A stretch of 64,000 nucleotides of DNA from a virus (taxonomy: Duplodnaviria > Heunggongvirae > Uroviricota > Caudoviricetes): positions 1 to 64,000 of the IMG/VR virus record IMGVR_UViG_3300029841_000001. One strand, written 5' to 3'. Positions 4,898 to 59,680 of the stretch are shown piece by piece (the stretch's first letter is position 1; each line of letters opens with the position of its first letter). The translations under genes were made by a program, and so were the position numbers. Below the pieces are notes generated by a model. The model was given only the letters and a program-made list of their open reading frames with translations. It made no database searches and had not been told where the DNA came from.

Positions 4898-4898
4898 A

Positions 4899-5810: not shown

Positions 5811-5812
5811 AT

Positions 5813-6094: not shown

Positions 6095-6204
6095 CCATTT
6101 AATCCATTTGTTGCATTTTTTACAATACAGTCCTGTCTGTGTACCACTTTCTTTTGTGTAAAACTCCTCACATCCACACTTATTACATTTTTCTGGAATA
6201 ATAG

Positions 6205-6278: not shown

Positions 6279-6299
6279 GCCATGAAATTCTGCTTTCAT

Positions 6300-6569: not shown

Positions 6570-6603
6570 ATCTTATACTCCTTTAAACTTTATAAAATAA
6601 GAA

Positions 6604-7128: not shown

Positions 7129-7131
7129 ATA

Positions 7132-12074: not shown

Positions 12075-12076
12075 CC

Positions 12077-13816: not shown

Positions 13817-13831
13817 TCTGCACCACCTTAA

Positions 13832-14911
13832 TTATTGATTTGTTCCTACATATATTTTGTTCTCCATAAGTTTCAACAAAGTTTCTTTACCTCTATCTGT
13901 TGGAGAATCTTTATAACCTAACAAATTTGTACTATCCCATAGTACAGATACAGAAACAAATGGACTTAATTTATCTATGATTTTATCTTTTATATGTTGT
14001 GACCAGTTTTTACATTCATCTGAATCAAGAGTTTGATATTGTTTATCCAATGCAATAATAACTTCTCTAACTCCCAACATAAGAATCATTCCTTTTTGAT
14101 AATCAGTTAAATTACTTCCACATAAAGCAACTGTAAAATTATCTTCACCAAACATAGTATCAGTTTGAAATACTGATTTTTCAGCTTCTACAAGCATTAC
14201 CTTTCTCTTTTTTTGAATTGCATTTATATTATGATTTAAACCAAATAAATTCAATCCAAGAGAATGATTATAAAATTTATTGCCAATTTTAAACGGTGCA
14301 TATTTACCGAATAATTCAATATCATCAGGTAGTAATGCTCTCGATCTTACACCAACTAAATTATTTTTCATATCATAATGCGGAATGATGATTTTTTGTT
14401 GCCATGTCGAATAAAGAATATTGTACTTTTTCATTGTTTCTACAGAAATTCCTTCTTCTATCCATGATTGACAATAAAAGTGCTGAAATATATTAAGAAC
14501 GTTTTTATCGTAAGGAACTAATATTTTATCTTTTGGTTTTACCTTTTTATTTTTCTTATATTTTTTAATAAACTCCCAATCGGAAATTTGTTCCTGTTTA
14601 CCAAATCCATACACATGATTGTCAAGATTTAATTTTACAGAAATCCAATTGATAGCTTTTTGAAATTCTTCTTGTTCATATCCTTTATATCCCATAACTA
14701 CGCCAATAATATCTAATTGACCGCATTCTGTATAACAATGAAATGACATAGAATCTTTATAAAAATATAATTTAGGTTTAGTTCCATGATGACATATTGT
14801 ATCTGTAATCCACATATCATCATCTTCGTAATAAAAAGTAGCTCCCATTAATTCAAGAAGTTTCTTAATATCATCTTCTGTAAGTTTACTTTTTAATTCC
14901 TGGGCGGTCAT
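13832..14911 (-). CDS. DnaG-like DNA primase (zinc-binding domain + TOPRIM)
   Basis: N-terminal zinc-binding CHHGTKPKLYFY...FHCYTCG; TOPRIM-like LVEAEKSVFQTD...; position between helicase and RecJ. Confidence 0.6.
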   Translation of the reverse strand: MTAQELKSKLTEDDIKKLLELMGATFYYEDDDMWITDTICHHGTKPKLYFYKDSMSFHCYTECGQLDIIGVVMGYKGYEQEEFQKAINWISVKLNLDNHVYGFGKQEQISDWEFIKKYKKNKKVKPKDKILVPYDKNVLNIFQHFYCQSWIEEGISVETMKKYNILYSTWQQKIIIPHYDMKNNLVGVRSRALLPDDIELFGKYAPFKIGNKFYNHSLGLNLFGLNHNINAIQKKRKVMLVEAEKSVFQTDTMFGEDNFTVALCGSNLTDYQKGMILMLGVREVIIALDKQYQTLDSDECKNWSQHIKDKIIDKLSPFVSVSVLWDSTNLLGYKDSPTDRGKETLLKLMENKIYVGTNQ

Positions 14912-14923
14912 ATAAGTACCTCC

Positions 14924-26917: not shown

Positions 26918-27829
26918 TTAATGCATTTCCTTATCGGCTTTATGTAATCTCATTACATTATTATAAAGTTTATCTCCAAGCAATTTTTGATATTTATGTT
27001 TTGTTTTATCTCCGTATTCTTTATCTTTTTCCCAGAAATGAGGTTGCATATGTAAATTAATAATAATAGAAACATCCAATCTATTTACACTTTGTGGATA
27101 ATCAAAGAACAAACTATCATATGAACCTGTACAATGATGCTGATAATAATGTGCTATATCTGTTATTTCTCCTTTTGAGTTAACAAAGCTTTTAACAAAT
27201 GGTTTACCGCAATCATGAAGCGATCCCGCATAGTATAGTAAAGAATTATCTTTTAATTCCTCTCCAACTAATTTGCAATGTTGTCCAAGTGTATATACAT
27301 GATGTGGATTATCCTGGTTAAATTCCATATGTTTATCAATCCAATTTTCAACAGTATCCACAATTTTATAATTTTGCGGGAACACGATCCTAATATCATC
27401 CCATCCTTCAAACCAATATGGAGTATTCCAATTTTTATACATTCTATCAATTACTTCATATGGAACAATTCTACTTCTTGACTCATTCTGTTTATAGCAC
27501 ATATGAAACGGAGTAGCCATTATTATACATTTTTTAATACATGGAATATTTTTAAGTTCAGACAAAAACGCCCTACGTCTTTTAGATTTAATATTTGTTG
27601 CGTCATAAATTGTATTCTTACCATTTTTTAAATTATTTTTAATTCTTTTGTGCAATACACGAAATACTTCTTCGTTTTGATTTTGTATATTTTCATTACC
27701 AAATAATTCTTCTCTAATAGCATCTGAATTACAAATTATTGCATTAATGTCATCCGATAATTGTTTTGCATAAGTGGACTTGCCTGACCCAACAAGACCA
27801 ACCATCATAATAAAAATAGGTTTATTCAT
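26918..27829 (-). CDS. Polynucleotide kinase-HD phosphohydrolase (Pnk-HD-type end-healing enzyme)
   Basis: N-terminal P-loop kinase (MVGLVGSGKSTYAKQ, downstream D and R as in polynucleotide 5'-kinases). C-terminal HD domain (H..H...LHDCGKP...H). Adjacent to the RNA ligase. Confidence 0.6.
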   Translation of the reverse strand: MNKPIFIMMVGLVGSGKSTYAKQLSDDINAIICNSDAIREELFGNENIQNQNEEVFRVLHKRIKNNLKNGKNTIYDATNIKSKRRRAFLSELKNIPCIKKCIIMATPFHMCYKQNESRSRIVPYEVIDRMYKNWNTPYWFEGWDDIRIVFPQNYKIVDTVENWIDKHMEFNQDNPHHVYTLGQHCKLVGEELKDNSLLYYAGSLHDCGKPFVKSFVNSKGEITDIAHYYQHHCTGSYDSLFFDYPQSVNRLDVSIIINLHMQPHFWEKDKEYGDKTKHKYQKLLGDKLYNNVMRLHKADKEMH

Positions 27830-29144
27830 TTACAGTTTCCTCATATAATTCTTCTGCTTCTTCAATATCGGGAGTATCTGATGTATCTTTTGCAATACCT
27901 TCAACAACTTTAAATTCAAAAACTTTATCTTTAAAAGCAGTAAATGTTTCCCTATTATCAATACGGACGACTACTCCTTCTGCGATATGTGTCTTTCCAA
28001 TCTCATCCACTGGCATCCCGTCAAGATATTTATTTACTCTCATTTTTAAATCTTCTGGGGTTGTATAAATAAATTTCTCTAAATCTGGTACATGTTTAAC
28101 GCCTAATTTGTCACACCATATTTTAGTTACTTCCCAAGGGACTTCAACAACTGTTCCATCTGCGGTAGTCATAGTCATTCTATACACATACATTTCTGAT
28201 TCACCAGGTTTACATCCATATGAAAATATAGTAGTGTCACCGAATTTCTTTATAAATGCTTTATCTTTTACACTTTTATTTGAAACGGAACTCATAATAG
28301 GAGTAGACTCATTTACATATCCAACAATCTCATAAAAGATTTCACATCCTTCTGGTAATTTATCTTTTAAAATATCATGATATTTTCTTCTGAATCCATT
28401 GTCTGAATAATATCCATCATTCTTTGCCATATCTTTTAATACAACTCTTCTACTTCCAGATACAACGGAAACTTCTCTAATTGTCTTTGGACACATTCGA
28501 AATAATCTTCTTAGTAAATTATTTTTCTTGGTTACTTTTACAGTTTTCATTGTACGTGCAGATGTTCCATGCATTTTTCTTGTAATATAAATTGTATCTC
28601 CTGGTTTAAACGCAGATATATTATATGCAAGCTGTGCAGTATCCTTATGCTCTTCAAAAAATGGATACGATATAGATTCTTGTTTATATTTATTTTTCTT
28701 ATTTTTTGAATTAGGTATATTTGAATTTGAACGTCTTTTACTTCTTGGAATATATTTCTTACAAATCTCATGTCCTCCAAGAATTGTAATTTGATCACCA
28801 TCTTTTAATTTTGAAATATCAGTATATTTAGAAAGTGTTTCAACTGGTAAAACAAGTCCTTCTGATTTCTCGCCACGGAGTCTTATAGCGGTAACATTTC
28901 TTTTTTCTGCGTCCATATAACCGCCGATGTTATTACCATTTTCATCTTTCTTTCGCACAAGATTATTATCTATAGCAAATTCAATAGAAAGCTGTCCATC
29001 GGAAGGAAAGAATATTACTTTTTGTCCTTCTTTATAGCTTAAATCTACAATTACATTTTGACCAAATACTTCCGCACACTGTAATCTATCAGCATTACTA
29101 TGTTTCCTTAGACCTTTTAGCGTTGTTATATATGCACAATACAT
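27822..29144 (-). CDS. ATP-dependent RNA ligase (Rnl2/DraRnl-like)
   Basis: Adenylyltransferase motif I RKMHGTS (T4 Rnl2 KIHGTN); N-terminal extension upstream of the nucleotidyltransferase domain; 440 aa. Confidence 0.55.
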   Translation of the reverse strand: MYCAYITTLKGLRKHSNADRLQCAEVFGQNVIVDLSYKEGQKVIFFPSDGQLSIEFAIDNNLVRKKDENGNNIGGYMDAEKRNVTAIRLRGEKSEGLVLPVETLSKYTDISKLKDGDQITILGGHEICKKYIPRSKRRSNSNIPNSKNKKNKYKQESISYPFFEEHKDTAQLAYNISAFKPGDTIYITRKMHGTSARTMKTVKVTKKNNLLRRLFRMCPKTIREVSVVSGSRRVVLKDMAKNDGYYSDNGFRRKYHDILKDKLPEGCEIFYEIVGYVNESTPIMSSVSNKSVKDKAFIKKFGDTTIFSYGCKPGESEMYVYRMTMTTADGTVVEVPWEVTKIWCDKLGVKHVPDLEKFIYTTPEDLKMRVNKYLDGMPVDEIGKTHIAEGVVVRIDNRETFTAFKDKVFEFKVVEGIAKDTSDTPDIEEAEELYEETVNE

Positions 29145-33694: not shown

Positions 33695-34723
33695 TTAGAT
33701 TTCACCTTTAACTACTCTTTCATTTACAGAAGCTACAAACTCATTAATCTTTTTATAATCTGGACTATCTGGTAAATCGGTATTCTCTTTTGCGTAGTCT
33801 AATCTCTTTTCATATTCATCTACCATTTCATAAAATTCTGGAACAGGTTGCCTATTTTCATCTAAATATTTACCATTACGAATATCCATAAGTAAATCAT
33901 GCTCTTTATCTCTATAGGTATTGATTTCTCCTTTTTCAAGAATATCCAGGCACATCATATATAATCTAATCAAATGCATCATATGTTTACCTAATTTATT
34001 TGCTTCAATCGCTTTTTGATTGCGTTTACCAATCTTGCCATATGCTTTTACGATAGATTGCATTTCAGAAATCATACCAGAATAATCTCTTAGAGGATAA
34101 TGTGTTAAATTCACATCCATAAAAATTTCCGTATCATATCCCTCTTGAACTGCTTTATCAATATATAATTTAATCGCATCATCTGGCATTGTAAAATGTT
34201 TTTGTTTAAAGTCAAACATTGCATGATCAATTGTCTTAAAGATATGTTCTTCGTTTTTAGCCTGTCCAACTAATCTATTTGACTTATTCTCCAACCTACG
34301 GAGCTGCTGATTAGCATAGCCACCAAAAGAATAAATTGCTTTCTTCGATAGAAATAAATCTTTATTATAAATAAATTCTCTACCAATTGGCGATACATAG
34401 AAATAATGTTCTGGTTTATTACCGAGCATTTCAATTGTGTTAGGATTACAATTGCATAACAGTGAAATCAATTTATTAAACGCATAAATGGTTGTATCTG
34501 TTTTTTCATTTACAAATTGCTCAAAATTTTCATTCGTAAGAATTTGCATTTTACTATTCAATGCACATCCTCTAATATCCAGATCACTTGTTTCTGTATT
34601 TGTACCATAAGCATGACTTCCACCAAGTGTAAGAATAATAATATTATTACCTAAATTCTTATCTTTTCGTAAGAAATCGTATTCTTTACTTCTTAATTTC
34701 TCTTTAATCTGCTCTATTGTCAT
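33695..34723 (-). CDS. Pol-beta-superfamily nucleotidyltransferase
   Basis: LTLGGSHAYGTNTETSDLDIRG matches hG[GS]-x9-13-[DE]h[DE]h; 342 aa with a helical C-terminal domain. Confidence 0.5.
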   Translation of the reverse strand: MTIEQIKEKLRSKEYDFLRKDKNLGNNIIILTLGGSHAYGTNTETSDLDIRGCALNSKMQILTNENFEQFVNEKTDTTIYAFNKLISLLCNCNPNTIEMLGNKPEHYFYVSPIGREFIYNKDLFLSKKAIYSFGGYANQQLRRLENKSNRLVGQAKNEEHIFKTIDHAMFDFKQKHFTMPDDAIKLYIDKAVQEGYDTEIFMDVNLTHYPLRDYSGMISEMQSIVKAYGKIGKRNQKAIEANKLGKHMMHLIRLYMMCLDILEKGEINTYRDKEHDLLMDIRNGKYLDENRQPVPEFYEMVDEYEKRLDYAKENTDLPDSPDYKKINEFVASVNERVVKGEI

Positions 34724-36192: not shown

Positions 36193-37080
36193 TTATCGTG
36201 TAATAACATTAAACATATCATCTACAGAATCAAGTAAATCATATCTTTTATCAAACGGAGCAGTTGAACTTTTTGCAAATTTTTTCTCTACCATATCAAT
36301 GTAATATGTAAATTCAGAATCTCGTCCCATATAAAACTCATCCCATTCTTCCTGAGTTAATAATCTTTTTACATTCAACTGCTCAATTGCAAGATTATCA
36401 AAACTTACAACTTTAAATTTCTGAATAATATCTTCAAGATTTTCATATAACCATTGCTGCTTAGTCTCAATATCATTCTGTTCTTCTTCAAAATACTCAT
36501 TACCTCTACGCAAATGTTTATACCCAAGAATTAACATCTTTAAATTATTATTCTCTAATGCTTTTATATCAGATGGTTTTAATACACCATTAATTACATG
36601 AATAACTGCATTTGGATATTGTTTTATAAGTTCAATAAAATGTTTTGTGGGATTTACTAGCGAAACGCCAAGACCATAGATTAATTTCTCGTCAACTAAC
36701 TTTTTGATTAATTCATGCTTCTTTTCAAAATGGATCTGATTAACAGTCATATTTGCAATAACTTTTCGTTCTTTTAGTTTTTGTAAGAATGGAATTAAAT
36801 CAGGATGACTGGTTGCATCACCACCGCCAATTGCAATTTCTTGATATGGATGTAAAGTATCAATAAATTTTTCATTTAAAATATCTCCAAATTTACCATG
36901 TAAAGAGCTACCCTCATGACAAAATTTACATCCCCTATCACAGTAATTACAAATTTTTACATCCATGTTTTCAGCAAAACTAGGAATAAATTCATCATCT
37001 TTTGTTTCTCTAATTTTTGTTCCGTCACTCAAAATAGTTGTCACAAAGTTACCGTTTTTATATCTTCCTAATAATCCCAT
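36193..37080 (-). CDS. Radical SAM enzyme
   Basis: CNYCDRGCKFC contains the CxxxCxxC [4Fe-4S] motif near the N-terminus; glycine-rich AIGGGD SAM-binding-like motif; 295 aa. Confidence 0.55.
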   Translation of the reverse strand: MGLLGRYKNGNFVTTILSDGTKIRETKDDEFIPSFAENMDVKICNYCDRGCKFCHEGSSLHGKFGDILNEKFIDTLHPYQEIAIGGGDATSHPDLIPFLQKLKERKVIANMTVNQIHFEKKHELIKKLVDEKLIYGLGVSLVNPTKHFIELIKQYPNAVIHVINGVLKPSDIKALENNNLKMLILGYKHLRRGNEYFEEEQNDIETKQQWLYENLEDIIQKFKVVSFDNLAIEQLNVKRLLTQEEWDEFYMGRDSEFTYYIDMVEKKFAKSSTAPFDKRYDLLDSVDDMFNVITR

Positions 37081-38012: not shown

Positions 38013-39113
38013 TTATCTTAAATCTACATCATTTCGGGTTTCTCCATCAGAATAATAAATATTCCAATCATTAAATAAATTTATAAGCAAATCATTATCC
38101 CATTTGTCATATTCATTACAATGGGTAATTGCAATTGATTTTGTATTTCCAAAATCTCCAATATCATCAGAACATCTATTATATAGTTCTCTTAGATTAA
38201 GATGTCCATATCTTAATATATCTTGAAAAGGATTTGGAACATTTGTTTTATCATACATATATTCGTTAATAAAATTTTTATTGCATTCTGATGGAAATTT
38301 CCCTGCGCCATGTCTTGTTAAATAAGTACGAGATACATAACAAGTTTCAATATTTATATCATCATTCCATTCAATATTTTCAATTATTTTCTTGGGATTT
38401 TTAATTCCAGTGTTAGATGGGGTAAGATGTGGAAAATAATCAATATTATTTTGATCAAGTAAAAGCCCTTGTGCTGCTTCAAAAATAATATTGTCATACT
38501 GATTTAAGAAATATTCATCTGAAATACACAATGAATGGCTATTCATAAAATCCAAGTCTTCTAAGAAATGTTCAAATATACCATTATCAAAAAAGATTTT
38601 CAACCATTCGCCTGATAATTCAATGTCCTCCTTTTTAAATTGTTCCAAATAGTATTCTTTAATATTGTAATCTAAATCAGTTACACCAGCTCTATATCTT
38701 TTAATTGTCTCAAAAACCCCTAATCCACAACTACCATGTTTATTTTTACCACGGCTTTCCTCAACGATTTGATTAGCTATCATATCAAATGGAGTTGTTA
38801 TCATGCAATTTTGATTAATATATACATTTAGATTATGATTAAGTTTTACTAACTCATCATATTCTTGTTTAAAAATAATTGGATTAAGAATAAAATCCTC
38901 AGATAAATATGTACTTGCGTTATTAAATGTACCTGATCCAAAATGATGAAAGACATGTCTAATTGCAGTTGGCGTTGTTACAGTATGTCCTCTTTGCGCT
39001 CCACCATTTGAACACACAACAATGCTATTGGATTTTTGCGAAAAATAATCTGTCATCAAGCCCTTTCCTTCATCCCCAAAATTTGCTCCAATTACAATCT
39101 TAATGTCTTTCAT
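38013..39113 (-). CDS. Adenylosuccinate-synthetase-like enzyme (PurA family; PurZ candidate)
   Basis: GANFGDEGKGLMTD (PurA GDEGKGK P-loop) and NGGAQRGHTV (PurA GG.NAGHT). 366 aa is shorter than cellular PurA and within the phage PurZ range. Confidence 0.55.
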   Translation of the reverse strand: MKDIKIVIGANFGDEGKGLMTDYFSQKSNSIVVCSNGGAQRGHTVTTPTAIRHVFHHFGSGTFNNASTYLSEDFILNPIIFKQEYDELVKLNHNLNVYINQNCMITTPFDMIANQIVEESRGKNKHGSCGLGVFETIKRYRAGVTDLDYNIKEYYLEQFKKEDIELSGEWLKIFFDNGIFEHFLEDLDFMNSHSLCISDEYFLNQYDNIIFEAAQGLLLDQNNIDYFPHLTPSNTGIKNPKKIIENIEWNDDINIETCYVSRTYLTRHGAGKFPSECNKNFINEYMYDKTNVPNPFQDILRYGHLNLRELYNRCSDDIGDFGNTKSIAITHCNEYDKWDNDLLINLFNDWNIYYSDGETRNDVDLR

Positions 39114-40884: not shown

Positions 40885-41190
40885 TCATATTTCCTCAAAC
40901 ATATTTTTGTTTATACACGCTTGACACTTTCTCCCTACAACATCTTTCTGTCCATACTTACACTCAGTACAATTAGCCAGCTCAAAATATTCTCGCTCCC
41001 ATTGAAGAACATTATGGAAATCATATGAAGCATATCCCATATGATAATTGTCTTCTCCAACTTCCTTGTATTTTAATAAATAACATGGTTTATCGTCTAT
41101 AATCTCGAAAATTTGTTCTATATCGGTTACTTTTGTTTTTGGATTATGTTTAATATTTGTACTTGTTTTACACATTGCTATTACTCCCAA
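40885..41190 (-). CDS. Cys-rich hypothetical protein
   Basis: 101 aa. Confidence 0.35.
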   Translation of the reverse strand: MGVIAMCKTSTNIKHNPKTKVTDIEQIFEIIDDKPCYLLKYKEVGEDNYHMGYASYDFHNVLQWEREYFELANCTECKYGQKDVVGRKCQACINKNMFEEI

Positions 41191-41540
41191 TCAAGTTTCT
41201 GTCCGCATTTATCACAATAAATAAAAGATCTATTAAGTCCTTCTCCGCAACAAGGACAATTTCCTCTTGAAGTATAATAGTTTCCAGAAAAATCGAGAAT
41301 GGATTTCATATTTGTGATTTTCTTAGGAATTTGTTTTTCCAATGCTTTAATGGCTTTCATTCTAACTTCGTAAGTACATTTACCACCATAAGCTGTGTCG
41401 TCATAACTTAATTCTTTTAATGCTTCTTCTGGTTTCATATTAGTCCTCCTAATGAAATTTCTCCTTAATGGAAACATAATCAATGAATACTCGCTTTCTT
41501 TTACCACATTTCTTACATTCCAGAACAGCTTCCTCAGCAT
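41181..41540 (-). CDS. Zinc-ribbon protein
   Basis: CPCCGEG...CDKCGQKL. Confidence 0.35.
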   Translation of the reverse strand: MLRKLFWNVRNVVKESEYSLIMFPLRRNFIRRTNMKPEEALKELSYDDTAYGGKCTYEVRMKAIKALEKQIPKKITNMKSILDFSGNYYTSRGNCPCCGEGLNRSFIYCDKCGQKLDWE

Positions 41541-41733: not shown

Positions 41734-41934
41734 TTATATTTTCTCTATTACTTCCAACTTTTTTCCACAATACGGACAATAATTATAATTATCCGCATAA
41801 TCTTCACAACCGTCTTGAAATGAATTGAGATAACTTGCACCATACGGTTTACTGTTTGCGACATTACACCAAATGAATACTGTTCCATACGGATTTATGT
41901 ATTTGAAGCAATTCAGGTGCTTTTTATTTCCCAT
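41734..41934 (-). CDS. Small zinc-ribbon protein
   Basis: CPYCGKKL. Confidence 0.3.
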   Translation of the reverse strand: MGNKKHLNCFKYINPYGTVFIWCNVANSKPYGASYLNSFQDGCEDYADNYNYCPYCGKKLEVIEKI

Positions 41935-42361
41935 TCTTCTTCATCTCCTCCAGCTTCTTCTCGGCTTCTTCACGAGTGAGGAAAATAGATTTTCCTATAG
42001 AATTCTTCATAATTGAAGTAAACTTAATTTCTTTTACATAATATTTCTTCTTTTCATACTCGCATTGAACATATTCTTCACATTTCCATTTTTGAGTAGC
42101 TTCACAATGTTCATAATCATAAATACAATCAAGAAATGATCCTACTACATACACATTAGTTCCTGTCGCAACTGGCAATCTCACAAGCAAGCCCTGTTCT
42201 TCTAAGTCTTCATAAGTGGCAAGCTTTTCAATCGCAGGATATAAATATTCTCCGCTTAATACTTTAACAAGAGGTATTTTATTCTTAGATTCAAATACTT
42301 TTATCCCTGAAATTCCATTCTTTTCATCATTTGGAACATATCTTTCTGTTAATCTCTCCAT
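41924..42361 (-). CDS. Hypothetical protein
   Basis: 145 aa. Confidence 0.4.
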   Translation of the reverse strand: MERLTERYVPNDEKNGISGIKVFESKNKIPLVKVLSGEYLYPAIEKLATYEDLEEQGLLVRLPVATGTNVYVVGSFLDCIYDYEHCEATQKWKCEEYVQCEYEKKKYYVKEIKFTSIMKNSIGKSIFLTREEAEKKLEEMKKNGK

Positions 42362-43275: not shown

Positions 43276-44184
43276 TTATGCGACTACATCCTCAATACTC
43301 TTTTCTCCAACTGGAAATACTTCTGGTTCTTCGGCAGCCACAGACTCTACATTTTTCTTTAACTGCTCAAAATAACTATCTTTTAATTCACTTGCAATTC
43401 CTCTTCTTCCTAATTTAAGTGCAACATATGGAGTAGAACCAATTCCACCAAACGGATCAAACACAATATCGTTTGGATTCGTCCATAATTCAATACATCT
43501 CTGAATTACTTCAAGCTGTAATGGACAAATATGTTTCTCATCCTGTTCAGATCTTGCTGATTTTCTCTGTAATGTATCACTCTGCCTAATGTCCATCCAT
43601 ACAGGTGAAGCGTAATTTTGCCATACATTAACAGGAAATGATTCATTTGTGTGTTCAACTCGTTCTGGATTATCACCAGGCTTCCTAACCGTAATTACAT
43701 AATCTGGAAGTCCTTGACGACTCATACTACTATCTTTCTTAATCTGTTTATGTAAAAGCCCAAGTGCTTTTGTTCTTTGCATTTCCGTAACAGGATTCTT
43801 CCAAATAGTTACTTTACTATGGTAAATGAATCCACAATCCTGAAAGATTTTAAGCATGAGCGCAGGAAAATCTTTTAATCCAATAACACCATCTCTTGAC
43901 TTCATGAGAGGTAAATCCATACAGTGAAAACTCAGAAGTCGTCCAGGCATTGTAATTCTATATAATTCTTTTGCAAGATATTTGAAATGGTTATAAAATT
44001 CTTCATCGCCCTTACAGTTACCCATATCTCTATCTGAATTGGAGTACACATATAACTGTGAAAATGGTGGTGAAAAGATAGTGTAGTGGATGCTATTATC
44101 TGGAATCTCCTTAGTAATTTCTACACTATCTCCATGATAAAGTGCATATCTGTTTGCTACTGCTTGATCAATTACATTCATCAT
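43276..44184 (-). CDS. DNA N6-adenine/N4-cytosine methyltransferase (beta class, PF01555-like)
   Basis: Motif IV FSPPF (D/S-PP-Y/F) near the N-terminus, then motif I VFDPFGGIGSTP near the C-terminus; this order defines beta-class amino-MTases. Confidence 0.7.
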   Translation of the reverse strand: MMNVIDQAVANRYALYHGDSVEITKEIPDNSIHYTIFSPPFSQLYVYSNSDRDMGNCKGDEEFYNHFKYLAKELYRITMPGRLLSFHCMDLPLMKSRDGVIGLKDFPALMLKIFQDCGFIYHSKVTIWKNPVTEMQRTKALGLLHKQIKKDSSMSRQGLPDYVITVRKPGDNPERVEHTNESFPVNVWQNYASPVWMDIRQSDTLQRKSARSEQDEKHICPLQLEVIQRCIELWTNPNDIVFDPFGGIGSTPYVALKLGRRGIASELKDSYFEQLKKNVESVAAEEPEVFPVGEKSIEDVVA

Positions 44185-45548
44185 TATTTAAATTCCTCCC
44201 AGTTTGGTAATTTCATTGTTGTATTTGCTTCATATGGTGTAGTAAGCCTACACGTTGATTTAAGCTCTTTCTTAGTAATTTCTTTAGTCAGATTAATCAT
44301 TGCATCTCTCATAGTAATGAAATCTAATTGTTTTCTTTCGATATTCTCTTTTACACAACCTTCTTTTGCTGAAATGATTATGTATACATTGACTTCTTTT
44401 GTCTGACCAAAACGCCAACATCTTCTTACAGCCTGATAATACTGCTCAAAACTATCAGAAAGTCCAGTAAAAATAACATTGTGGCAATTCTGCCAATTCA
44501 TGCCATACCCTGCGAGCTGTGGCTTACTGATAAGACATTTTAATTTTTCATCAGAAAATGATAGCATTGTTTCACTCTTGTATTTATTCTTATCACTTCC
44601 TTGAACGTTTTTACTTTCCTCAATCAGTTCATTTAACCTATCACCTTCGGCATTAAGATCACACCATACTAACCACTGTTCATCAGAATTATTCACTAAC
44701 TCCGCTGCTTTTTGGCATCTTAATTCAAGAGTATCTTTTCTTGCATTTCTACGCTCTGTTAATGTGAGTGATTCAGTAATTGGTTCATTTCCATCAACTA
44801 TAATTTCGTGAATATTCAAATTAGGTAATTCATAATCTGTACCGTCATATCCTAAATTTGATGGATTATCAATAAATACAGACCAACTTGCCATCCATTG
44901 CCAAAATACATCTTTTGCATGACCTTTCAATCTCCACTTAGATGTTTGACCACCATCATGAACAAAGAACATTGATAACATCTCTGAACGTGTCATAACT
45001 CCACAAAATTCAGAATGATTTCCCAACTCCATATAATCATTTGGGGCAGGTGTTGCAGTACAAGCTAATTTATAGGGAACATTTTGGAAATTCTCGATAA
45101 TAGAAGTCCTCACTTTACCAGTGTAGGATTTAAGAATTGAACTCTCATCTAAGACTACTCCAACAAATTCATTTGCTACGAATTTATCTAGTTTCTCATA
45201 GTTTGTAATATTAATTCCATTAATACAATCTTCCTGTTTCTCACATACTTTTGAATTATAATGGAATTTTTCAGCTTCTCTCTTTGTCTGATCCGCAACC
45301 GATAGAGGTGCAAGAATCAAAACTTTACCGCCCGTATGTAGATGTACTTGATGCGCCCATGATAATTGCATTAGTGTTTTACCAAGCCCACATTCTGCAA
45401 AAATACAAGCTCTACCTTTTGCTAAAGCCCATCTTACTACATCTTTCTGAAAGTCAAATAACATGGGATTTAGTTTATCTTTATCAATATTAAATCCGCT
45501 ACTTTCCAGAACATAATCCTTTTGTTTTAGAAAATCTTCGTAATTCAT
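44184..45548 (-). CDS. SNF2/DEAD-like superfamily-2 helicase
   Basis: Motif I ECGLGKTL, motif II VVLDESS, motif VI QAVRRCWRFGQ; its stop overlaps the MTase start. Confidence 0.65.
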   Translation of the reverse strand: MNYEDFLKQKDYVLESSGFNIDKDKLNPMLFDFQKDVVRWALAKGRACIFAECGLGKTLMQLSWAHQVHLHTGGKVLILAPLSVADQTKREAEKFHYNSKVCEKQEDCINGINITNYEKLDKFVANEFVGVVLDESSILKSYTGKVRTSIIENFQNVPYKLACTATPAPNDYMELGNHSEFCGVMTRSEMLSMFFVHDGGQTSKWRLKGHAKDVFWQWMASWSVFIDNPSNLGYDGTDYELPNLNIHEIIVDGNEPITESLTLTERRNARKDTLELRCQKAAELVNNSDEQWLVWCDLNAEGDRLNELIEESKNVQGSDKNKYKSETMLSFSDEKLKCLISKPQLAGYGMNWQNCHNVIFTGLSDSFEQYYQAVRRCWRFGQTKEVNVYIIISAKEGCVKENIERKQLDFITMRDAMINLTKEITKKELKSTCRLTTPYEANTTMKLPNWEEFK

Positions 45549-47501: not shown

Positions 47502-47820
47502 TATTATTCCCTTTCATCTCATCGGATTCCCTGTTTATGCTCCAATATTGCAAGAAATTGTATTGAAAGCATTCAGCAGAAAAGTCTGAATAACTCTGCA
47601 ATTTGTCTGGTTTAGCTTGTGCCCTGTAGCAATGACTACGTTTTGGACAGTCACTACTACGGCACATAGTAATATCAGGCATTTTTATTACTATCTTTCT
47701 TCTTACGTTTCACGGAATCAGCTTTAATTTTAAGCTGCTCATTCTCAATTTTTCTCATCATCCCTCTGAATTTTCCTGTCTGTTTACTTGTAATTCCCAT
47801 AATGCTTTCTCCTTTTCTTA

Positions 47821-48032
47821 TTATGAATTAAAATATTTTACAATCTGTTTGCCAATCCAACGTCCCATTGGAACAGCAACAGCATTACCAATCTGTCTAT
47901 AAGCATCATTATCTGTTCACAGAACTCAAACCAATCTGGAAAACCTTGTAGTCTAGCATATTCCCTTACTGTATATGGTCTAATTCTATTTTCATTTTTG
48001 ATTAATCTTGTTCTTGGAAATAATTTGGATGA
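47821..48032 (-). pseudogene. C-terminal remnant of a DNA (cytosine-5)-methyltransferase, frameshifted
   Basis: One frame reads ...RPYTVREYARLQGFPDWFEFCEQ. After a -1/+2 shift near 47905-47925 the frame continues DNDAYRQIGNAVAVPMGRWIGKQIVKYFNS*. This is C5-MTase motif IX/X (ENV...QIGNAV). No N-terminal motifs (FxGxGG, PCQ) are present upstream. Confidence 0.6.
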
Positions 48033-48061: not shown

Positions 48062-48217
48062 TTATTCCTCCCAATAATCATAATTAGGATTCATAAGACA
48101 TTCAGGACATCTACAGACTAATTCTCCATCTTCGTCCTCGTAATAATCGTCACCATAACCACTACATTCATAGCAGTAGTCATATGGATCTTCTTCATAA
48201 TTGTCTAAATCATTCAT
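48062..48217 (-). CDS. Small acidic zinc-ribbon protein (51 aa)
   Basis: Read by hand: MNDLDNYEEDPYDYCYECSGYGDDYYEDEDGELVCRCPECLMNPNYDYWEE. Confidence 0.35.
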   Translation of the reverse strand: MNDLDNYEEDPYDYCYECSGYGDDYYEDEDGELVCRCPECLMNPNYDYWEE

Positions 48218-48686
48218 CTTTCACCTCTAGTTTCTTTAAATCTTCAATGCTCCAAGGTTTTTCATTTTCCCATTTTATAAAATCAAACATACCGCCAAAT
48301 GGCTTTTTAGAAATATAACAATAGTCACACATTGATATATTTTCGAGACACCAACCATCATATCCTTTACTTGGCAGTGAATCAAAAACATATAAATTTT
48401 TATCTTCACCTCTTGCTAAATATTTCCATTTAGCTACAATCAAATCAAGGAACGTTTTCTCTTTTGATGTGATTGTAGGTTCCTCTACATATTCTGATTC
48501 AGACCATTCACGTAATTGATCGAGGCATACCTGTGAACGTCCAATATGTTCAACCATATCAAACATGCATGATTCACAATTAATATTATCACAACAAACA
48601 ACTTCATTATCTTTTGTTACTGCTATACTCCTACCATTACAAGCAATATCTACAATTTCTTTAGCGAATTTCTCTCTATTTTTCAT
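48210..48686 (-). CDS. Cys-rich hypothetical protein
   Basis: 158 aa. Confidence 0.4.
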   Translation of the reverse strand: MKNREKFAKEIVDIACNGRSIAVTKDNEVVCCDNINCESCMFDMVEHIGRSQVCLDQLREWSESEYVEEPTITSKEKTFLDLIVAKWKYLARGEDKNLYVFDSLPSKGYDGWCLENISMCDYCYISKKPFGGMFDFIKWENEKPWSIEDLKKLEVKDE

Positions 48687-52693: not shown

Positions 52694-53473
52694 TCACATT
52701 TCAACAATTCTGTATAATTGCCTATTCAGATAATGTTCAAGTAAATAATCATTATCTAGCCCAGTACCATGATAAAATTCTTCTGCAATTCCACCACCTA
52801 TAGCACATAATGTATCCATATCACATTTCAACGAGAATACATTTCGCAAGAAACTTTCATAATCATCACTTTCCAGAAAACATCTTATTGCAACAGGTAC
52901 ACTTCCTTGACAAGTTTCATTCCACTGATATGTCTTTCTATAGTCTTCAATTTTATATTCAACACTATATTGATAATCGTCTTTTGGGTAATTCTTCTTC
53001 ACATATTCATAGATTTCTGCTTTTGTAGCACCTGTTCTTGCCATATAAATGCACATTGCTGTTACAACTGCTCCTTTGATTCCCTCTGAATGATTATGTG
53101 TACACTCAGCAGATTTTGTAGCCCATTCGATAACTTCTTTTTCTGTATTAAAATGTTCTCCGACATAAGAACATCTCATTGCAGATCCATTACCAAAACT
53201 TCCATATGTAGTTTCATCATCGTATCTTAACCACGTTTCAAAATTGTTTCCATATCCTGCATTTGGATATTTTCTTCCCCATTCTCTATATGATTCTGCG
53301 AAAGATTTATTATTAAGAATTGCTAATTTAGCAGCAAGTGTCATTACAGTATCATCTGTAAAATAACATCTATCAGTAAATAACTTACAATTCTTCCAGT
53401 CTAAATCAATCGGTCTACCAAATTCATATTGTGAACCTGCAATATCTCCTAAAATTGCGCCAATGATAGCCAT
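52694..53473 (-). CDS. ADP-ribosylglycohydrolase family protein (ARH/DraG-like)
   Basis: N-terminal AIIGAILGDIAGSQYEF (GDALG.p.E motif) and FTDDTVMTLA (DDT motif); 259 aa. Confidence 0.6.
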   Translation of the reverse strand: MAIIGAILGDIAGSQYEFGRPIDLDWKNCKLFTDRCYFTDDTVMTLAAKLAILNNKSFAESYREWGRKYPNAGYGNNFETWLRYDDETTYGSFGNGSAMRCSYVGEHFNTEKEVIEWATKSAECTHNHSEGIKGAVVTAMCIYMARTGATKAEIYEYVKKNYPKDDYQYSVEYKIEDYRKTYQWNETCQGSVPVAIRCFLESDDYESFLRNVFSLKCDMDTLCAIGGGIAEEFYHGTGLDNDYLLEHYLNRQLYRIVEM

Positions 53474-58179: not shown

Positions 58180-58330
58180 TACCAATTCTCTTTCCTCTTT
58201 ATTGTCAACATTTCCCCATTTTTCTACTACGTCACGCTTGTCAATGGTAAAAATCTGCTCTCGTGAACTACCACGAAGCTAAAGACTTCGTAGCTTCTTG
58301 GGACTATACTCTTATGAGCATTTCATTACC
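58180..58330 (-). ncRNA. Predicted omega-RNA (reRNA) region at the 3' end of tnpB / right end
   Basis: Inferred from TnpB biology: the guide RNA scaffold derives from the tnpB 3' end and RE, and this region contains the RE hairpin. Boundaries are not determinable from sequence alone. Confidence 0.3.
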
Positions 58331-59680
58331 AAGCTAATAACCGTGTTCCACAGTCTCTTATATTCATCGCTGCATTATAATCTCTATCGTTTTCATATCC
58401 ACAATCACAAGTATACCATCTGTCTGATAATTGCAAATCTTCTTTAATAGTGCCACAACAATGACACATTTTAGAAGACGGAAACCATTTATCAATCTTA
58501 ATAAATTGTTTTCCTTGTTCTTCCAACTTATATTTCAAAAAAGTCCTAAACATTCCAAATCCATTATCATGAACATTCTTTCCAAGTTTTAGACATTGAG
58601 CCATATTTCTTAAATCAATATCTTCTACTATAACAGCGTCATATTCGCCAGCTATTCTTCTCGATTCTTGGTGTAACCAATTAAGTCTTTGATTTGCAAT
58701 ATGTCTTTGTAATGTTGTAATTTTTTGTTTTTGTTTATACCAGTTTTTAGATTTAAGTTTTTTTCTTGACAATCCTCTTTGGATTTTTTTTAATTTTTCT
58801 TCTGATTTCCTATAATAGTGAGGATAATTGGCTTTCTTACCATTGCTATCAACATAGAAATCATGTTGAGAATAATCTAATCCAAGAACTTTTTCTGATT
58901 TCTTTGATTCAATATCAATTACATATTTAACACATAAACTGACATAAAATACACCCTTATTATCCATTGAAACAGTACAATTCTTAATAATTGAATTATT
59001 TGGCAATGGACGATGTTGTTTTACTTTAATCAATGTTTTAAGTTTTGGAATTTTTAACATAGAATTTTCCAATGTAATTAAATTCCATTTTTCACCTTGT
59101 GACTGATTATATGTTCTATATGAAAAATCATTGTTCTTAATACTCTTAAATCTTGGCATTCCTTTTAAGTCTCTGAAAGTAAGTTTAATTCCTAATGTCT
59201 TTTCTCTTTTTCGACTGCTTTTGGTATATGTCTTTTTATCATATTCTGTATTAAATTTTTTAATGGCATTATTAAAATCCATTTTTGCACTTGATAAACA
59301 CTGAGCATCAACATTTTTCATATAATCAAACTGTCTTGAAAAATCAGTATATTTACTCAAATGCAATTCCGATTTTTTAATTATTCCATTCTGATAACTA
59401 GACTCTTCGAGTTTTCTATATAACTCATCAACATACATATTGTATATTTTTCTTGCACAACCAAATGATTGTAAGAAAAACTCTTTCTGATCTTTAGTTG
59501 GAGCAATTTTAAACTTATAACCTCGATTAATGATAGTTTCCATCGTCTCACCACCTTTCTATGGATATTTTAGTTCCTACATATTTTTCTTTGATTTATT
59601 CTTCTTTATGTTGGTATATTCTCTATTCACATTCATTCACTAGGCTAAAGACCTAGTGGATTTCTGCTCTAGAAGTTTTA
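58260..59680 (-). mobile_element. IS200/IS605-family (IS1341-type, tnpB-only) insertion sequence with subterminal hairpins
   Basis: Intact TnpB ORF flanked by two hairpins in the same orientation with identical CTAAAGA loops and different, compensatory stems: ACGAAG/CTTCGT at 58273-58291 and CACTAGG/CCTAGTG at 59638-59658. This is typical of IS200/IS605 LE/RE structures. The element ends are approximate. Confidence 0.6.
58326..59543 (-). CDS. tnpB: TnpB (OrfB) RuvC-like RNA-guided nuclease/transposase-associated protein
   Basis: N-terminal OrfB-type HTH (GYKFKIAPTKDQKEFFLQSFGCARKIYN), C-terminal RuvC-III plus zinc ribbon CHCCGTIKED...CDCGYENDRDYNAAMNI; 405 aa. Confidence 0.75.
   Translation of the reverse strand: METIINRGYKFKIAPTKDQKEFFLQSFGCARKIYNMYVDELYRKLEESSYQNGIIKKSELHLSKYTDFSRQFDYMKNVDAQCLSSAKMDFNNAIKKFNTEYDKKTYTKSSRKREKTLGIKLTFRDLKGMPRFKSIKNNDFSYRTYNQSQGEKWNLITLENSMLKIPKLKTLIKVKQHRPLPNNSIIKNCTVSMDNKGVFYVSLCVKYVIDIESKKSEKVLGLDYSQHDFYVDSNGKKANYPHYYRKSEEKLKKIQRGLSRKKLKSKNWYKQKQKITTLQRHIANQRLNWLHQESRRIAGEYDAVIVEDIDLRNMAQCLKLGKNVHDNGFGMFRTFLKYKLEEQGKQFIKIDKWFPSSKMCHCCGTIKEDLQLSDRWYTCDCGYENDRDYNAAMNIRDCGTRLLAW

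What the first reader, a model, noticed from the sequence alone, without database searches (positions are those of the whole stretch)
43276..45548. SNF2-type helicase translationally coupled to a beta-class amino-DNA-methyltransferase
The helicase stop overlaps the MTase start. Beta-class (SPPF ... FGGIGST) MTases methylate N6-A or N4-C. A helicase partner suggests processive or replication-coupled genome methylation for anti-restriction, or a DISARM/BREX-like self-marking function co-opted by the phage. The pair is separate from the frameshifted C5-MTase remnant 3.5 kb away.
Basis: partly seen in the sequence, partly recalled or inferred. Interest (0 to 1): 0.5.

Follow-up and report, generated by a model that had tools for sequence, protein, structure and literature searches.

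The report
Split phage helicase–DNA methylase enzyme pair
Two overlapping phage genes encode an SNF2-type DNA motor and an amino-DNA-methyltransferase that many other phages make as one fused protein; this enzyme is common and already annotated, probably methylates the phage's own DNA, and has not been characterised biochemically in any paper I found.

Summary
On the minus strand, a 454-aa SNF2-type ATPase (45548..44184) ends in TAA, and the last A of that stop starts the ATG of a 302-aa beta-class PF01555 methyltransferase (44184..43276). The MTase has SPPF (motif IV) before FDPFGGIGST (motif I).

The overlap itself is ordinary: 24 of 97 same-strand junctions in the window overlap. The comparative evidence is what shows a real link. 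In all 234 testable related loci (phages, prophages, an archaeal virus; helicase identity 31-99%), the helicase is either fused to this MTase (34) or followed by it (200). It was never found alone.

The pair is therefore the split form of a widespread fusion enzyme. That enzyme is PHROG 16, annotated "DNA helicase/methyltransferase fusion protein" in mycobacteriophages.

Split helicases carry a conserved C-terminal tail (Y-x-P…Φ-P-x-W) that fused forms lack. It may be a docking peptide.

The motif IV Ser (SPPF in 70 of 72 relatives) points to N4-cytosine rather than N6-adenine. There is no nuclease and no DISARM or BREX partner.

The most likely role is motor-assisted protective methylation of replicating phage DNA. 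This is inferred, not shown.

Verdict: new member of a known but uncharacterised kind, of modest interest.

The parts
44184..45548 (-). SNF2-type SF2 ATPase/translocase, 454 aa. It is a minimal two-lobe motor with no nuclease or other accessory domain.
   Evidence: ORF. Pfam SNF2-rel_dom, ResIII, Helicase_C and DEAD. phrog_62 6.4e-66 and phrog_16 1e-47. Best PDB sequence matches are SNF2 remodellers and SsoRad54. The AF2 model of a fused homologue matches BRG1, Mot1, CSB, Chd1, ISWI, RapA and ZorD.
45375..45389 (-). Helicase motif I (Walker A), GLGKT, aa 54-58.
   Evidence: The G-L-G-K residues are invariant in an 80-sequence alignment of fused homologues.
45138..45152 (-). Helicase motif II (Walker B), LDESS, aa 133-137.
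   Evidence: D-E-S is invariant in the alignment.
44403..44435 (-). SNF2-type motif VI, QAVRRCWRFGQ, aa 372-382.
   Evidence: Q, R, R, R, G and Q are invariant in the alignment.
44187..44240 (-). Helicase C-terminal tail TPYEANTTMKLPNWEEFK (aa 437-454), containing the split-form-specific motif Y-x-P...Φ-P-x-W. It is a candidate docking peptide for the MTase subunit (inferred).
   Evidence: [LIVMF]-P-x-[WF] occurs in the last 30 aa of 100/122 non-fused cluster representatives. It occurs in 0/28 fused ones. Background is 0.5% per 30-aa window. It is present in 198/200 split loci, including those where another gene separates helicase and MTase.
44194..44200 (-). Shine-Dalgarno sequence GGGAGGA for the MTase. 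It is embedded in the W-E-E codons of the helicase tail, about 9 nt upstream of the ATG.
   Evidence: The same GGGAGGAATTT string is present in most Clostridia-type relatives.
44182..44186 (-). Stop/start junction TAATG, a 1-nt overlap at base 44184.
   Evidence: Among 200 split relatives, 153 overlap (93 by 4 nt as ATGA, 19 by 1 nt, 41 otherwise), 33 have gaps of 60 nt or less, and 14 have an inserted gene.
43276..44184 (-). Beta-class amino-DNA-methyltransferase, 302 aa, PF01555. It has a very short segment at the canonical TRD position.
   Evidence: Pfam 3.1e-21. phrog_67 1.1e-40, and the C-terminal part of the phrog_16 profile. PADLOC MTase_II 1.7e-32. Full-length match to TTHA0409 (PDB 2zie) at 3.7e-18.
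44062..44073 (-). MTase catalytic motif IV, SPPF (aa 38-41).
   Evidence: SPPF in 70/72 family members. Ser-Pro-Pro-Tyr/Phe is the signature of most N4-cytosine MTases, against DPPY for N6-adenine (PMC8885841).
43432..43461 (-). MTase motif I (SAM binding), FDPFGGIGST (aa 242-251).

Best explanation
The two genes encode the two halves of one enzyme. An SNF2-type, ATP-driven double-stranded-DNA translocase works with a beta-class amino-methyltransferase that probably makes N4-methylcytosine. Many phages, prophages and at least one archaeal virus make this enzyme as a single helicase-then-MTase polypeptide of about 730-840 aa. In this phage it is split and translated from overlapping cistrons, with the MTase ribosome-binding site lying inside the helicase's last codons. 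The subunits probably reassemble, possibly through the conserved C-terminal tail of the helicase.

The most likely job is to methylate the phage's own replicating DNA quickly and completely, with the motor carrying or loading the MTase along DNA. Progeny genomes would then be protected from host restriction.

Shown here: the identity of the domains, the intact catalytic motifs, the obligate linkage, the split/fused alternation, the tail motif, and the absence of a nuclease or defence partners.

Inferred: complex formation, translocation, the base modified, and the anti-restriction purpose.
For: 1. Domain identity and intact motifs.
2. One PHROG profile (phrog_16, 986 positions) matches the helicase at positions 250-627 and the MTase at 800-915, so the family contains fusions.
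3. Fused single ORFs exist in Flavobacterium phage FCV-3 (729 aa), Methanosarcinales virus vir525 (742 aa) and Mycobacterium phage Sarma624 gp65 (839 aa, annotated 'DNA helicase/methyltransferase fusion protein').
4. All 234 testable loci have the MTase fused (34) or downstream on the same strand (200). Helicase identity ranges from 31 to 99%. Hosts span Bacillota, Negativicutes, Fusobacteriota, Cyanobacteria, Bacteroidota, Actinomycetota, Verrucomicrobiota, Nitrospirota and Saccharibacteria.
5. Among the best 150 cluster representatives from 1.84 billion proteins, 28 are helicase-then-MTase fusions and none has the reverse order.
6. The tail motif is specific to split forms. It is kept even where another gene separates the two cistrons, so it is not merely an RBS constraint.
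7. The AF2 model of a natural fusion with an 80-sequence MSA gives pLDDT 81 and pTM 0.71. This is compatible with a defined three-lobe assembly.
8. No nuclease domain is present, and no defence-system hit appears in the pair or in 10 neighbours.
9. In smaller relatives the module sits among SSB, DnaD-like loader, primase/helicase, DNA polymerase and Sak4 genes. It is therefore expressed with the replication genes.
10. Precedent: SWI2/SNF2 ATPases coupled to MTases in phages and plasmids, with a proposed Type III-like translocation-assisted methylation (PMC5512222).
Against: - No methylation data exist for this phage or, in the literature searched, for any member of this helicase-then-beta-MTase family.
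- Orphan phage MTases normally work without a motor, so the need for one is unexplained.
- SNF2 enzymes in phage replication modules could have their own replication or recombination role.
- The neighbourhood in relatives (SSB, Sak4, ERCC4-type nuclease) fits that alternative equally well.
- In this large phage the pair lies about 28 kb from the replisome genes.
- The Ser-to-N4-cytosine rule has exceptions and was not tested.
- Physical association of the split subunits is unproven. Single-sequence AF2 of the concatenated pair failed (pLDDT 37.5).
Confidence: 0.55

Rival explanations
1. The helicase is primarily a replication/recombination motor, acting in fork remodelling, branch migration or protein stripping at forks. 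The MTase merely rides on it so that nascent DNA is methylated as it is made. On this view the motor does not exist to serve the MTase.
For: In the 40-85 kb relatives the module is embedded among SSB (10/35 dereplicated groups), ERCC4-type nuclease (9), DnaD-like loader (7), primase/helicase (5), Sak4 (5), DNA polymerase (4) and primase (4). In Dulem virus 39 it lies between SSB and the replisome organiser. The helicase scores higher against the general phage helicase family phrog_62 (224 bits) than against phrog_16.
Against: The helicase was never found without the MTase in 234 loci, and repeated covalent fusion argues that the two activities act on the same substrate together. This phage has a separate full replisome about 28 kb away: DnaB-like helicase, primase, polymerase, RecJ-like, ExoV/Dda-like and ligase. 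SNF2 motors translocate on duplex DNA rather than unwind it (PMC5512222).
Confidence: 0.25
2. The methylation is regulatory rather than protective. For example, it could time packaging, replication initiation or late transcription, as with Dam-dependent pac cleavage in P1.
For: Orphan MTases can be regulatory (general knowledge). The module is conserved in both temperate and large phages regardless of host, and the DNA-contacting part of the MTase is highly conserved across the family, which suggests one common target.
Against: No associated regulator or target site was identified. The very broad host range and frequent horizontal movement between unrelated phages (variable neighbourhoods) fit a generic protective function better.
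Confidence: 0.1
3. It is a defence or superinfection-exclusion system of the Type III, DISARM or BREX kind, carried by the phage. The MTase marks self DNA and the helicase is part of an effector against unmarked DNA.
For: The helicase-plus-beta-class-MTase composition resembles Type III Res+Mod. There are weak PADLOC/NCBIfam similarities to ZorD, DpdE and DrmD (14-48 bits against those defence-helicase models).
Against: The 454-aa helicase has no nuclease domain. No nuclease, DrmA/B/C, PglZ, BrxC or other PADLOC hit occurs in 10 flanking ORFs. Scores lie far below the curated cut-offs: DrmD 18.5 against 950 bits, ZorD 28 against 1500. The gene order is opposite to mod-res. The module occurs in lytic-type large phages and inside replication modules.
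Confidence: 0.05
4. The two genes are functionally independent, and their overlap is just compact phage gene packing.
For: About 25% of same-strand junctions in this window overlap.
Against: There are 34 independent-looking covalent fusions and 100% co-occurrence across 234 loci and many phyla.
Confidence: 0.02

Closest known systems
Phage 'DNA helicase/methylase' fusion proteins (PHROG 16). Examples: Mycobacterium phage Sarma624 gp65, Arthrobacter phage Sakai gp72, Flavobacterium phage FCV-3 ASD51632, Methanosarcinales virus vir525_00007.
   Same: Same two domains in the same order (SNF2 motor N-terminal, PF01555 MTase C-terminal). Same Ser-type motif IV (SPPF; SIPF in Sarma624). No nuclease. 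Phage early/replication-region context. Helicase identity 31-58%, MTase about 27-59%.
   Different: Here the enzyme is split into two overlapping cistrons, and the helicase has an extra conserved C-terminal tail that the fusions lack. None of these proteins has published biochemistry in the library searched.
Split helicase + MTase pairs of gut Clostridia phages and prophages. Examples: Dulem virus 39 XCD07460/XCD07459, and Lachnospiraceae, Blautia and Veillonella prophages.
   Same: Same split architecture, same tail motif, and an overlap or tiny gap at the junction. Protein identity 62-79%.
   Different: Those sit in 40-85 kb, mostly temperate phages inside replication modules. Here the pair is in a large phage of about 150-200 kb, among small unknown ORFs and about 28 kb from the replisome genes. 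In Dulem virus 39 the MTase is mis-annotated as a second 'helicase'.
DarB-type methylase-helicase dyad of polyvalent proteins (phage P1 DarB; Iyer et al. 2017, PMC5512222).
   Same: An MTase physically coupled to a SWI2/SNF2-clade ATPase in a mobile element. Proposed translocation-assisted methylation for anti-restriction.
   Different: DarB-type proteins have LPD36 plus a gamma-class EcoKI/TaqI-like NPPY adenine MTase N-terminal to the helicase. They are giant multidomain proteins packaged in the virion. Here the helicase comes first, the MTase is beta-class SPPF, and the total is only 756 aa with no other domains.
Type III restriction-modification (for example EcoP15I Mod2Res).
   Same: A beta-class, dimer-forming Mod-like MTase working with an SF2 ATPase that moves along DNA (PMC5512222; PMC10406627).
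   Different: There is no PD-(D/E)XK nuclease. The ATPase is SNF2-type rather than a typical Res. The gene order is reversed. Motif IV is SPPF, not DPPY. PADLOC MTase_III scores (about 1e-8) are far weaker than MTase_II scores (1.7e-32).
TTHA0409, a putative DNA methylase of Thermus thermophilus HB8 (PDB 2zie/2zif/2zig).
   Same: Closest solved structure to the MTase. It aligns over the full length, has an SPPY-type motif IV and the same compact beta-class fold.
   Different: Stand-alone bacterial protein with no helicase partner known to me. Only about 21-25% identical, with undetermined specificity.

Membership tests
Phage SNF2-helicase / beta-class MTase dyad (PHROG 16 type; 'DNA helicase/methylase') | SNF2-type SF2 ATPase core with intact motifs I, II, III and VI | tested here: met
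   Pfam SNF2-rel_dom/Helicase_C. GLGKT, DESS, TATP and QAVRRCWRFGQ are present. PDB and Foldseek neighbours are SNF2 remodellers.
Phage SNF2-helicase / beta-class MTase dyad (PHROG 16 type; 'DNA helicase/methylase') | PF01555 amino-MTase with motif IV (SPPF) N-terminal to motif I (FxGxG) | tested here: met
   Pfam 3.1e-21. SPPF at aa 38-41 and FDPFGGIGST at aa 242-251. SPPF in 70/72 relatives.
Phage SNF2-helicase / beta-class MTase dyad (PHROG 16 type; 'DNA helicase/methylase') | Helicase first and MTase second, either fused or immediately adjacent on the same strand | tested here: met
   1-nt overlap here. 234/234 related loci are fused or have the MTase downstream, and none has the reverse order.
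Phage SNF2-helicase / beta-class MTase dyad (PHROG 16 type; 'DNA helicase/methylase') | Both proteins match the single fused-family profile | tested here: met
   phrog_16: helicase 1e-47 at profile positions 250-627, MTase 1.5e-33 at positions 800-915.
Phage SNF2-helicase / beta-class MTase dyad (PHROG 16 type; 'DNA helicase/methylase') | The two parts form one physical enzyme and methylate DNA in an ATP-dependent way | not testable with these tools
   Only indirect evidence: natural fusions, the split-specific tail motif, and pTM 0.71 for a fused homologue.
DarB-type methylase-helicase dyad (polyvalent proteins) | Gamma-class EcoKI/TaqI-like adenine MTase with NPP(Y/F), placed N-terminal to the SNF2 module | tested here: not met
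   The MTase is PF01555 beta-class with SPPF and is encoded after the helicase. Definition from PMC5512222.
DarB-type methylase-helicase dyad (polyvalent proteins) | LPD36 domain and further effector domains in one giant polypeptide; virion packaging | tested here: not met
   The proteins are 454 aa and 302 aa, each essentially covered by its single domain. Packaging is not testable.
Type III restriction-modification | Res subunit carrying a PD-(D/E)XK endonuclease domain C-terminal to the helicase | tested here: not met
   The helicase ends about 70 aa after motif VI (aa 372-382). That stretch aligns with a long helix plus linker in the model of a fused homologue and ends in the tail motif. 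No nuclease family appears in Pfam, PHROG or PADLOC.
Type III restriction-modification | Mod (beta-class, DPPY, with a TRD) encoded upstream of res | tested here: not met
   The order is helicase then MTase. Motif IV is SPPF. MTase_III models score about 1e-8 against 1.7e-32 for MTase_II.
DISARM | Core genes drmA (DUF1998 helicase), drmB (DUF499) and drmC (PLD), alongside drmD/drmMI | tested here: not met
   DrmD similarity is only 18.5-22.5 bits, against an NCBIfam cut-off of 950. No PADLOC hit in 10 neighbouring ORFs. Neighbours carry no DUF1998, DUF499 or PLD domains in Pfam or PHROG.
BREX | PglX-type (gamma-class) MTase with PglZ phosphatase, BrxC ATPase and related genes | tested here: not met
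   The MTase is beta-class PF01555. No BREX model appears among the PADLOC hits shown for the pair (only the best 25 of 53 MTase hits were listed). No PADLOC hit in 10 neighbouring ORFs.
Hma (helicase-methylase-ATPase) system | HmaA helicase, HmaB C5-cytosine MTase and HmaC ATPase | tested here: not met
   The MTase is an amino-MTase, not C5, and there is no ATPase neighbour. No Hma model appears among the PADLOC hits shown for the pair or in the 10 neighbours. System described in PMC11705971.
N4-cytosine DNA methyltransferases | Ser-Pro-Pro-Tyr/Phe catalytic motif IV | tested here: met
   SPPF here, conserved in 70/72 relatives. Rule from PMC8885841.
N4-cytosine DNA methyltransferases | Demonstrated 4mC product | not testable with these tools
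   Requires SMRT/nanopore sequencing or a 4mC-specific chemical assay.

The most novel reading that the evidence does not exclude
The SNF2 motor and the SPPF methyltransferase form an obligate holoenzyme. They are held together either by covalent fusion or, in split forms like this one, by the helicase's conserved C-terminal Y-x-P…Φ-P-x-W tail docking onto the MTase. The holoenzyme uses ATP-driven duplex translocation to lay down N4-methylcytosine processively and densely on replicating phage DNA. This would be a 'motorised' orphan methylase, a mechanism not yet demonstrated for any stand-alone modification enzyme. The near-invariant DNA-contacting region and minimal TRD would then imply a very short or relaxed target.
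Probability: 0.3. Interest if true: 0.55.

Novelty: new member of a known kind. Interest (0 to 1): 0.3.

Why it matters
This helicase-MTase dyad is one of the commoner two-domain enzymes in tailed phages. There are thousands of homologues, and 304 isolated-phage records hold a helicase match, including many mycobacteriophages. I found no biochemical or methylome study of it.

If the motor really drives methylation, it would explain how phages modify many genome copies within minutes. It would also provide a simple bacterial model for SNF2-assisted DNA methylation, which is otherwise known from eukaryotic DDM1/HELLS.

The natural split and fused variants, together with the split-specific tail, give a ready-made handle for testing subunit docking. 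For this particular window, however, the pair is just one more member of that family.

Tried and rejected
1. DISARM, BREX, Zorya, Dpd and Hma membership. PADLOC and NCBIfam give only weak generic SNF2 similarity, and 10 neighbours give nothing. Rejected.

2. Type III R-M. No nuclease, wrong gene order, SPPF motif. Rejected as membership and kept as a mechanistic analogy.

3. DarB-type dyad. Different MTase class and different order. Rejected as membership.

4. Promoter and terminator scan of 41.5-47.5 kb. Counts are at the shuffled expectation, so it is uninformative.

5. AF2 of the concatenated window helicase + MTase without an MSA. pLDDT 37.5 and pTM 0.27, unusable. The docking hypothesis could therefore not be tested structurally.

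6. NJ tree of 149 helicase cores, to count fusion and fission events. Fused and split forms interleave (Fitch 20 or more changes, against about 26 when shuffled). The tree is too weakly resolved to count events reliably.

7. Literature searches for experimental work on helicase-MTase fusions. These found only comparative-genomic mentions (PMC5512222) and an intein survey (PMC5050341).

8. Treating the neighbouring PurA-like gene as PurZ, which would make an adenine MTase pointless. The PHROG label says PurZ, but PDB comparison puts the protein much nearer cellular PurA (61 bits) than characterised PurZ (13-16 bits). It was therefore not used as an argument.

9. Using sequence similarity to decide between m4C and m6A. 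PDB hits to both kinds score alike in the C-terminal SAM-binding part. Only motif IV discriminates.
Full report
**1. Observation**

The minus strand carries two ORFs at exactly the reported coordinates: 45548..44184 (454 aa) and 44184..43276 (302 aa). The junction is …CCAAACTGGGAGGAATTTAAATAATGATGAAT…. The helicase stop TAA and the methyltransferase ATG share base 44184. A strong Shine-Dalgarno sequence (GGGAGGA, 44194-44200) is formed by the helicase's Trp-Glu-Glu codons.

Pfam assigns the first protein to SNF2-rel_dom, ResIII, Helicase_C and DEAD, and the second to N6_N4_Mtase (PF01555, 3.1e-21). The helicase has GLGKT, LDESS, TATPAPND and the SNF2-type motif VI QAVRRCWRFGQ. The MTase has SPPF (motif IV, aa 38-41) ahead of FDPFGGIGST (motif I, aa 242-251), which is the beta-class order.

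One caveat applies. Overlapping stop/start codons are routine in this genome: 24 of 97 same-strand junctions overlap. The overlap alone therefore carries little weight.

**2. What it is**

A single PHROG profile, phrog_16 ('DNA helicase', 986 positions), matches the helicase over positions 250-627 and the MTase over positions 800-915. That implies fused family members, and they exist:

- Flavobacterium phage FCV-3 has one 729-aa ORF.
- Methanosarcinales virus vir525 has one 742-aa 'DNA helicase, phrog_16' ORF.
- Mycobacterium phage Sarma624 gp65 (839 aa) is annotated 'DNA helicase/methyltransferase fusion protein'.

FCV-3 and vir525 have SPPF followed by FxGIGS after the helicase part, and Sarma624 has SIPF.

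A tblastn search of isolated phages finds 304 records, mainly Mycobacterium (145), Flavobacterium (85), Arthrobacter (27) and Pseudomonas (23). Many are labelled 'DNA helicase/methylase' or 'DNA methylase N-4'.

In a library of 1.84 billion cluster representatives the helicase has 6916 hits at E ≤ 1e-3 and 961 at E ≤ 1e-30. Of the best 150:

- 28 are helicase-then-MTase fusions;
- 55 are stand-alone proteins of about 455 aa;
- 67 carry insertions or extensions;
- none has the MTase first.

**3. Is the coupling conserved?**

I collected 238 loci:

- 80 viral contigs with helicase identity of 70-99%;
- 87 viral contigs reached through two distant stand-alone helicases;
- 66 bacterial genome contigs;
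- five GenBank phage records (L001-L003, L237, L238), of which L001-L003 entered the tally.

In every locus with enough sequence to judge (234), an MTase homologue is either fused (34) or lies downstream on the same strand (200). The only two loci without a detectable MTase end at a contig edge.

Among the 200 split loci:

- 153 overlap (93 as ATGA, 19 by one base as here, 41 otherwise);
- 33 have gaps of 60 nt or less;
- 14 have a small gene inserted between the two, for example an HNH endonuclease.

The hosts named in the genome records include Lachnospiraceae, Blautia, Clostridium, Ruminiclostridium, Peptostreptococcus, Veillonella and Leptotrichia. More distantly they include Nodosilinea, Nitrospira, Verrucomicrobiae, Saccharibacteria, Solirubrobacterales and Bacteroidales.

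These loci are not all independent: the first 83 collapse to 35 groups at 95% DNA identity. The phyletic spread nevertheless makes chance adjacency untenable.

**4. A feature specific to the split form**

Stand-alone helicases end in a conserved tail, Y-(N/E)-P-x4-6-M-x-(L/I/V)-P-x-W-Φ. In the window it reads TPYEANTTMKLPNWEEFK.

- The core [LIVMF]-P-x-[WF] is present in the last 30 residues of 100 of 122 non-fused representatives.
- It is absent from the 60 residues preceding the MTase domain in all 28 fusions.
- The background rate is 0.5% per 30-aa window.
- It is present in 198 of 200 split loci.

The tail is retained at variable distances from the stop codon. It is also retained in loci where another gene separates helicase and MTase. 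It is therefore selected as a peptide, not only because its codons supply an RBS in the Clostridia-type lineages.

In fusions the equivalent stretch is a (D/E)Y-x7-G-x-x-W-x-L-x-L-GD segment. In an AF2 model it forms the first beta-hairpin of the MTase domain.

I infer, without proof, that the tail docks the motor to the MTase in trans.

A crude NJ tree shows fused and split forms interleaved. It is too poorly resolved to count fission and fusion events.

**5. Structure**

An AF2 model of a natural fusion (P0129, 755 aa, with an 80-sequence alignment) has mean pLDDT 81.4 and pTM 0.71.

Foldseek against the PDB matches the N-terminal two lobes to SNF2 remodellers and relatives: BRG1, Mot1, CSB, Chd1, ISWI, RapA, SsoRad54 and ZorD. 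The C-terminal domain matches TTHA0409 of Thermus thermophilus. No solved entry covers both parts.

By sequence, TTHA0409 (PDB 2zie) is also the best match for the window MTase over its full length (3.7e-18).

The segment at the canonical beta-class TRD position, between ASPVWMDI and EKHICPLQL, is only about 16 residues. The preceding region, WK(N/D)P…Q(R)TK…HKQ…KDSS…QG.PDY, is nearly invariant across the family. This suggests one shared, possibly short or relaxed, target. That is an inference.

Single-sequence AF2 of the concatenated window pair failed (pLDDT 37.5).

**6. Which base?**

Motif IV is SPPF in 70 of 72 family members examined. SPPY/F is the signature of most bacterial N4-cytosine MTases, whereas N6-adenine enzymes have DPPY (PMC8885841; beta-group motif IV 'DPPY or SPPY' in PMC2890505).

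Sequence similarity elsewhere does not discriminate. CcrM, DpnA and MboIIA (m6A) score like N4CMT and PvuII (m4C) over the SAM-binding half.

I therefore favour N4-methylcytosine at roughly 60:40, untested.

**7. Context**

In this window the pair sits in a long, tightly packed, single-strand run of small genes of unknown function. No promoter or terminator signal exceeds chance.

The phage's own replisome genes lie at 1.9-16.5 kb, about 28 kb away: NAD ligase, ExoV/Dda-like helicase, DNA polymerase, RecJ-like exonuclease, primase and DnaB-like helicase.

Near-identical modules (94-99%) occur in contigs of about 150-200 kb and in GenBank MT835469.1 (176 kb, human faeces).

At 70-79% identity the module is found in 40-85 kb phages. 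There its recurrent neighbours are SSB, an ERCC4-type nuclease, a metallo-hydrolase, a DnaD-like loader, PAPS reductase, primase/helicase, Sak4, DNA polymerase and primase. That is the replication/recombination module.

Neighbourhoods are otherwise variable, so the dyad moves as a unit. No nuclease domain and no defence-system component is present in the pair or in ten flanking ORFs.

**8. Mechanism**

The best-supported reading is a two-subunit version of a motor-plus-methylase enzyme. The SNF2 ATPase translocates on duplex DNA. SNF2 proteins track the minor groove without strand separation (PMC5512222). In doing so it carries or loads the amino-MTase, giving rapid and complete methylation of replicating phage DNA and hence protection from restriction.

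Beta-class MTases, including TTHA0409 and EcoP15I Mod, are dimers (PMC10406627). A (Hel-MT)2 assembly reminiscent of Type III Mod2Res, but lacking the nuclease, is therefore plausible.

- Shown: domain identity, intact motifs, obligate linkage, fusion/split alternation, the tail motif, and the absence of a nuclease.
- Inferred: complex formation, translocation, the base modified, and the protective purpose.

The main rival is that the motor has its own replication or recombination role and the MTase rides along. The regulatory-methylation and defence-system readings are less likely.

**9. Comparison with known systems**

The closest known kind is the phage 'DNA helicase/methylase' fusion (PHROG 16). 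The window pair meets every sequence-level criterion for this family and differs only in being split.

- It is not a DarB-type dyad. That type has a gamma-class NPPY adenine MTase plus LPD36 N-terminal to the helicase, within giant virion proteins (PMC5512222).
- It is not Type III R-M. There is no nuclease, the gene order is reversed, and motif IV is SPPF.
- It is not DISARM, BREX or Hma.

[quoted passage not shown] The association is therefore known in general terms. I found no experimental study of this particular helicase-then-beta-MTase family.

**10. Verdict**

This is a real, correctly described gene pair. Its functional coupling is strongly supported by comparative genomics. It is a new member, in split form, of a known, widespread but biochemically uncharacterised phage enzyme family.

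The DISARM/BREX suggestion is not supported. The anti-restriction, processive-methylation idea is plausible and remains to be tested. Interest is modest. The split-specific tail motif and the probable N4-cytosine specificity are the only points that go beyond existing annotation.

Noticed in passing
window 38013-39113 (-): A 366-aa adenylosuccinate-synthetase homologue (Pfam 5.7e-35). It matches phrog_1211, which is labelled as the PurZ-type enzyme of 2-aminoadenine (Z-base) genomes (2.7e-63). By PDB comparison, however, it is much closer to bacterial PurA (61 bits) than to characterised PurZ of phiVC8 or S-2L (13-16 bits). Only residues 6-280 align with PurA. Whether this phage makes Z-DNA is unresolved. 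No DatZ- or MazZ-like gene was seen next to it.
   Followed up: partly
window ~47790-48010 (-): Remnant of a C5-cytosine methyltransferase. Only the C-terminal motifs survive (RPYTVREYARLQGFPDWFEF, then after a frameshift YRQIGNAVAVPMGRWIG). No motif I, IV or VI is present. It lies about 2.2-2.5 kb upstream of the helicase start, which suggests past turnover of methylase genes in this region.
   Followed up: partly
window 58326-59543 (-): A 405-aa TnpB/IS605 OrfB-type protein (HTH_OrfB_IS605, OrfB_IS605 and Cas12f1-like TNB domains), meaning a transposon-associated RNA-guided nuclease gene inside the phage genome.
   Followed up: no
window 26918-29144 and 33695-34723 (-): An RNA-repair gene set: RNA ligase (phrog_968), a polynucleotide-kinase-like ATPase, and an RlaP-family nucleotidyltransferase. 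These are probably countermeasures against host tRNA-cleaving defences.
   Followed up: no
window 1875-16543 (-): Replisome block: NAD-dependent DNA ligase, ExoV/Dda-like helicase, DNA polymerase (phrog_1252), RecJ-like exonuclease, primase and DnaB-like helicase. It lies about 28 kb from the helicase-MTase pair.
   Followed up: partly
window 52694-53473 (-) and 36193-37080 (-): An ADP-ribosylglycohydrolase homologue (phrog_6572, 7.6e-46) and a radical-SAM/Fe-S oxidoreductase (phrog_16999), the latter close to the PurA-like gene. Roles are unknown.
   Followed up: no
homologues P0124-P0266 (representative library); for example P0130 and P0158: Many helicase homologues carry 150-340-aa insertions at fixed sites: after GKT, at DExx, and near query residues 288, 339 and 375. 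Some MTase parts carry an insertion of about 330 aa just before the conserved Cys of EKH-C-PLQL. P0130 matches Intein_splicing and P0158 matches Hint_2, so at least some of these are inteins, consistent with inteins reported in mycobacteriophage N6_N4_Mtase proteins (PMC5050341). Three tested insertions (P0124, P0125, P0143) gave no Pfam match.
   Followed up: partly
L001 (Dulem virus 39, PP511791.1) 5893-6819: The MTase half of the split pair is annotated in GenBank as a second 'helicase of the snf2 rad54 family'. This is probably annotation transfer from fused homologues.
   Followed up: yes
window 41924-42361, 41181-41540 and 48210-48686 (-): Three small ORFs of unknown function near the pair have homologues that recur near the helicase-MTase module in 6-9 of 35 dereplicated related phage groups. 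They tend to travel with it or belong to the same early-gene pool.
   Followed up: partly
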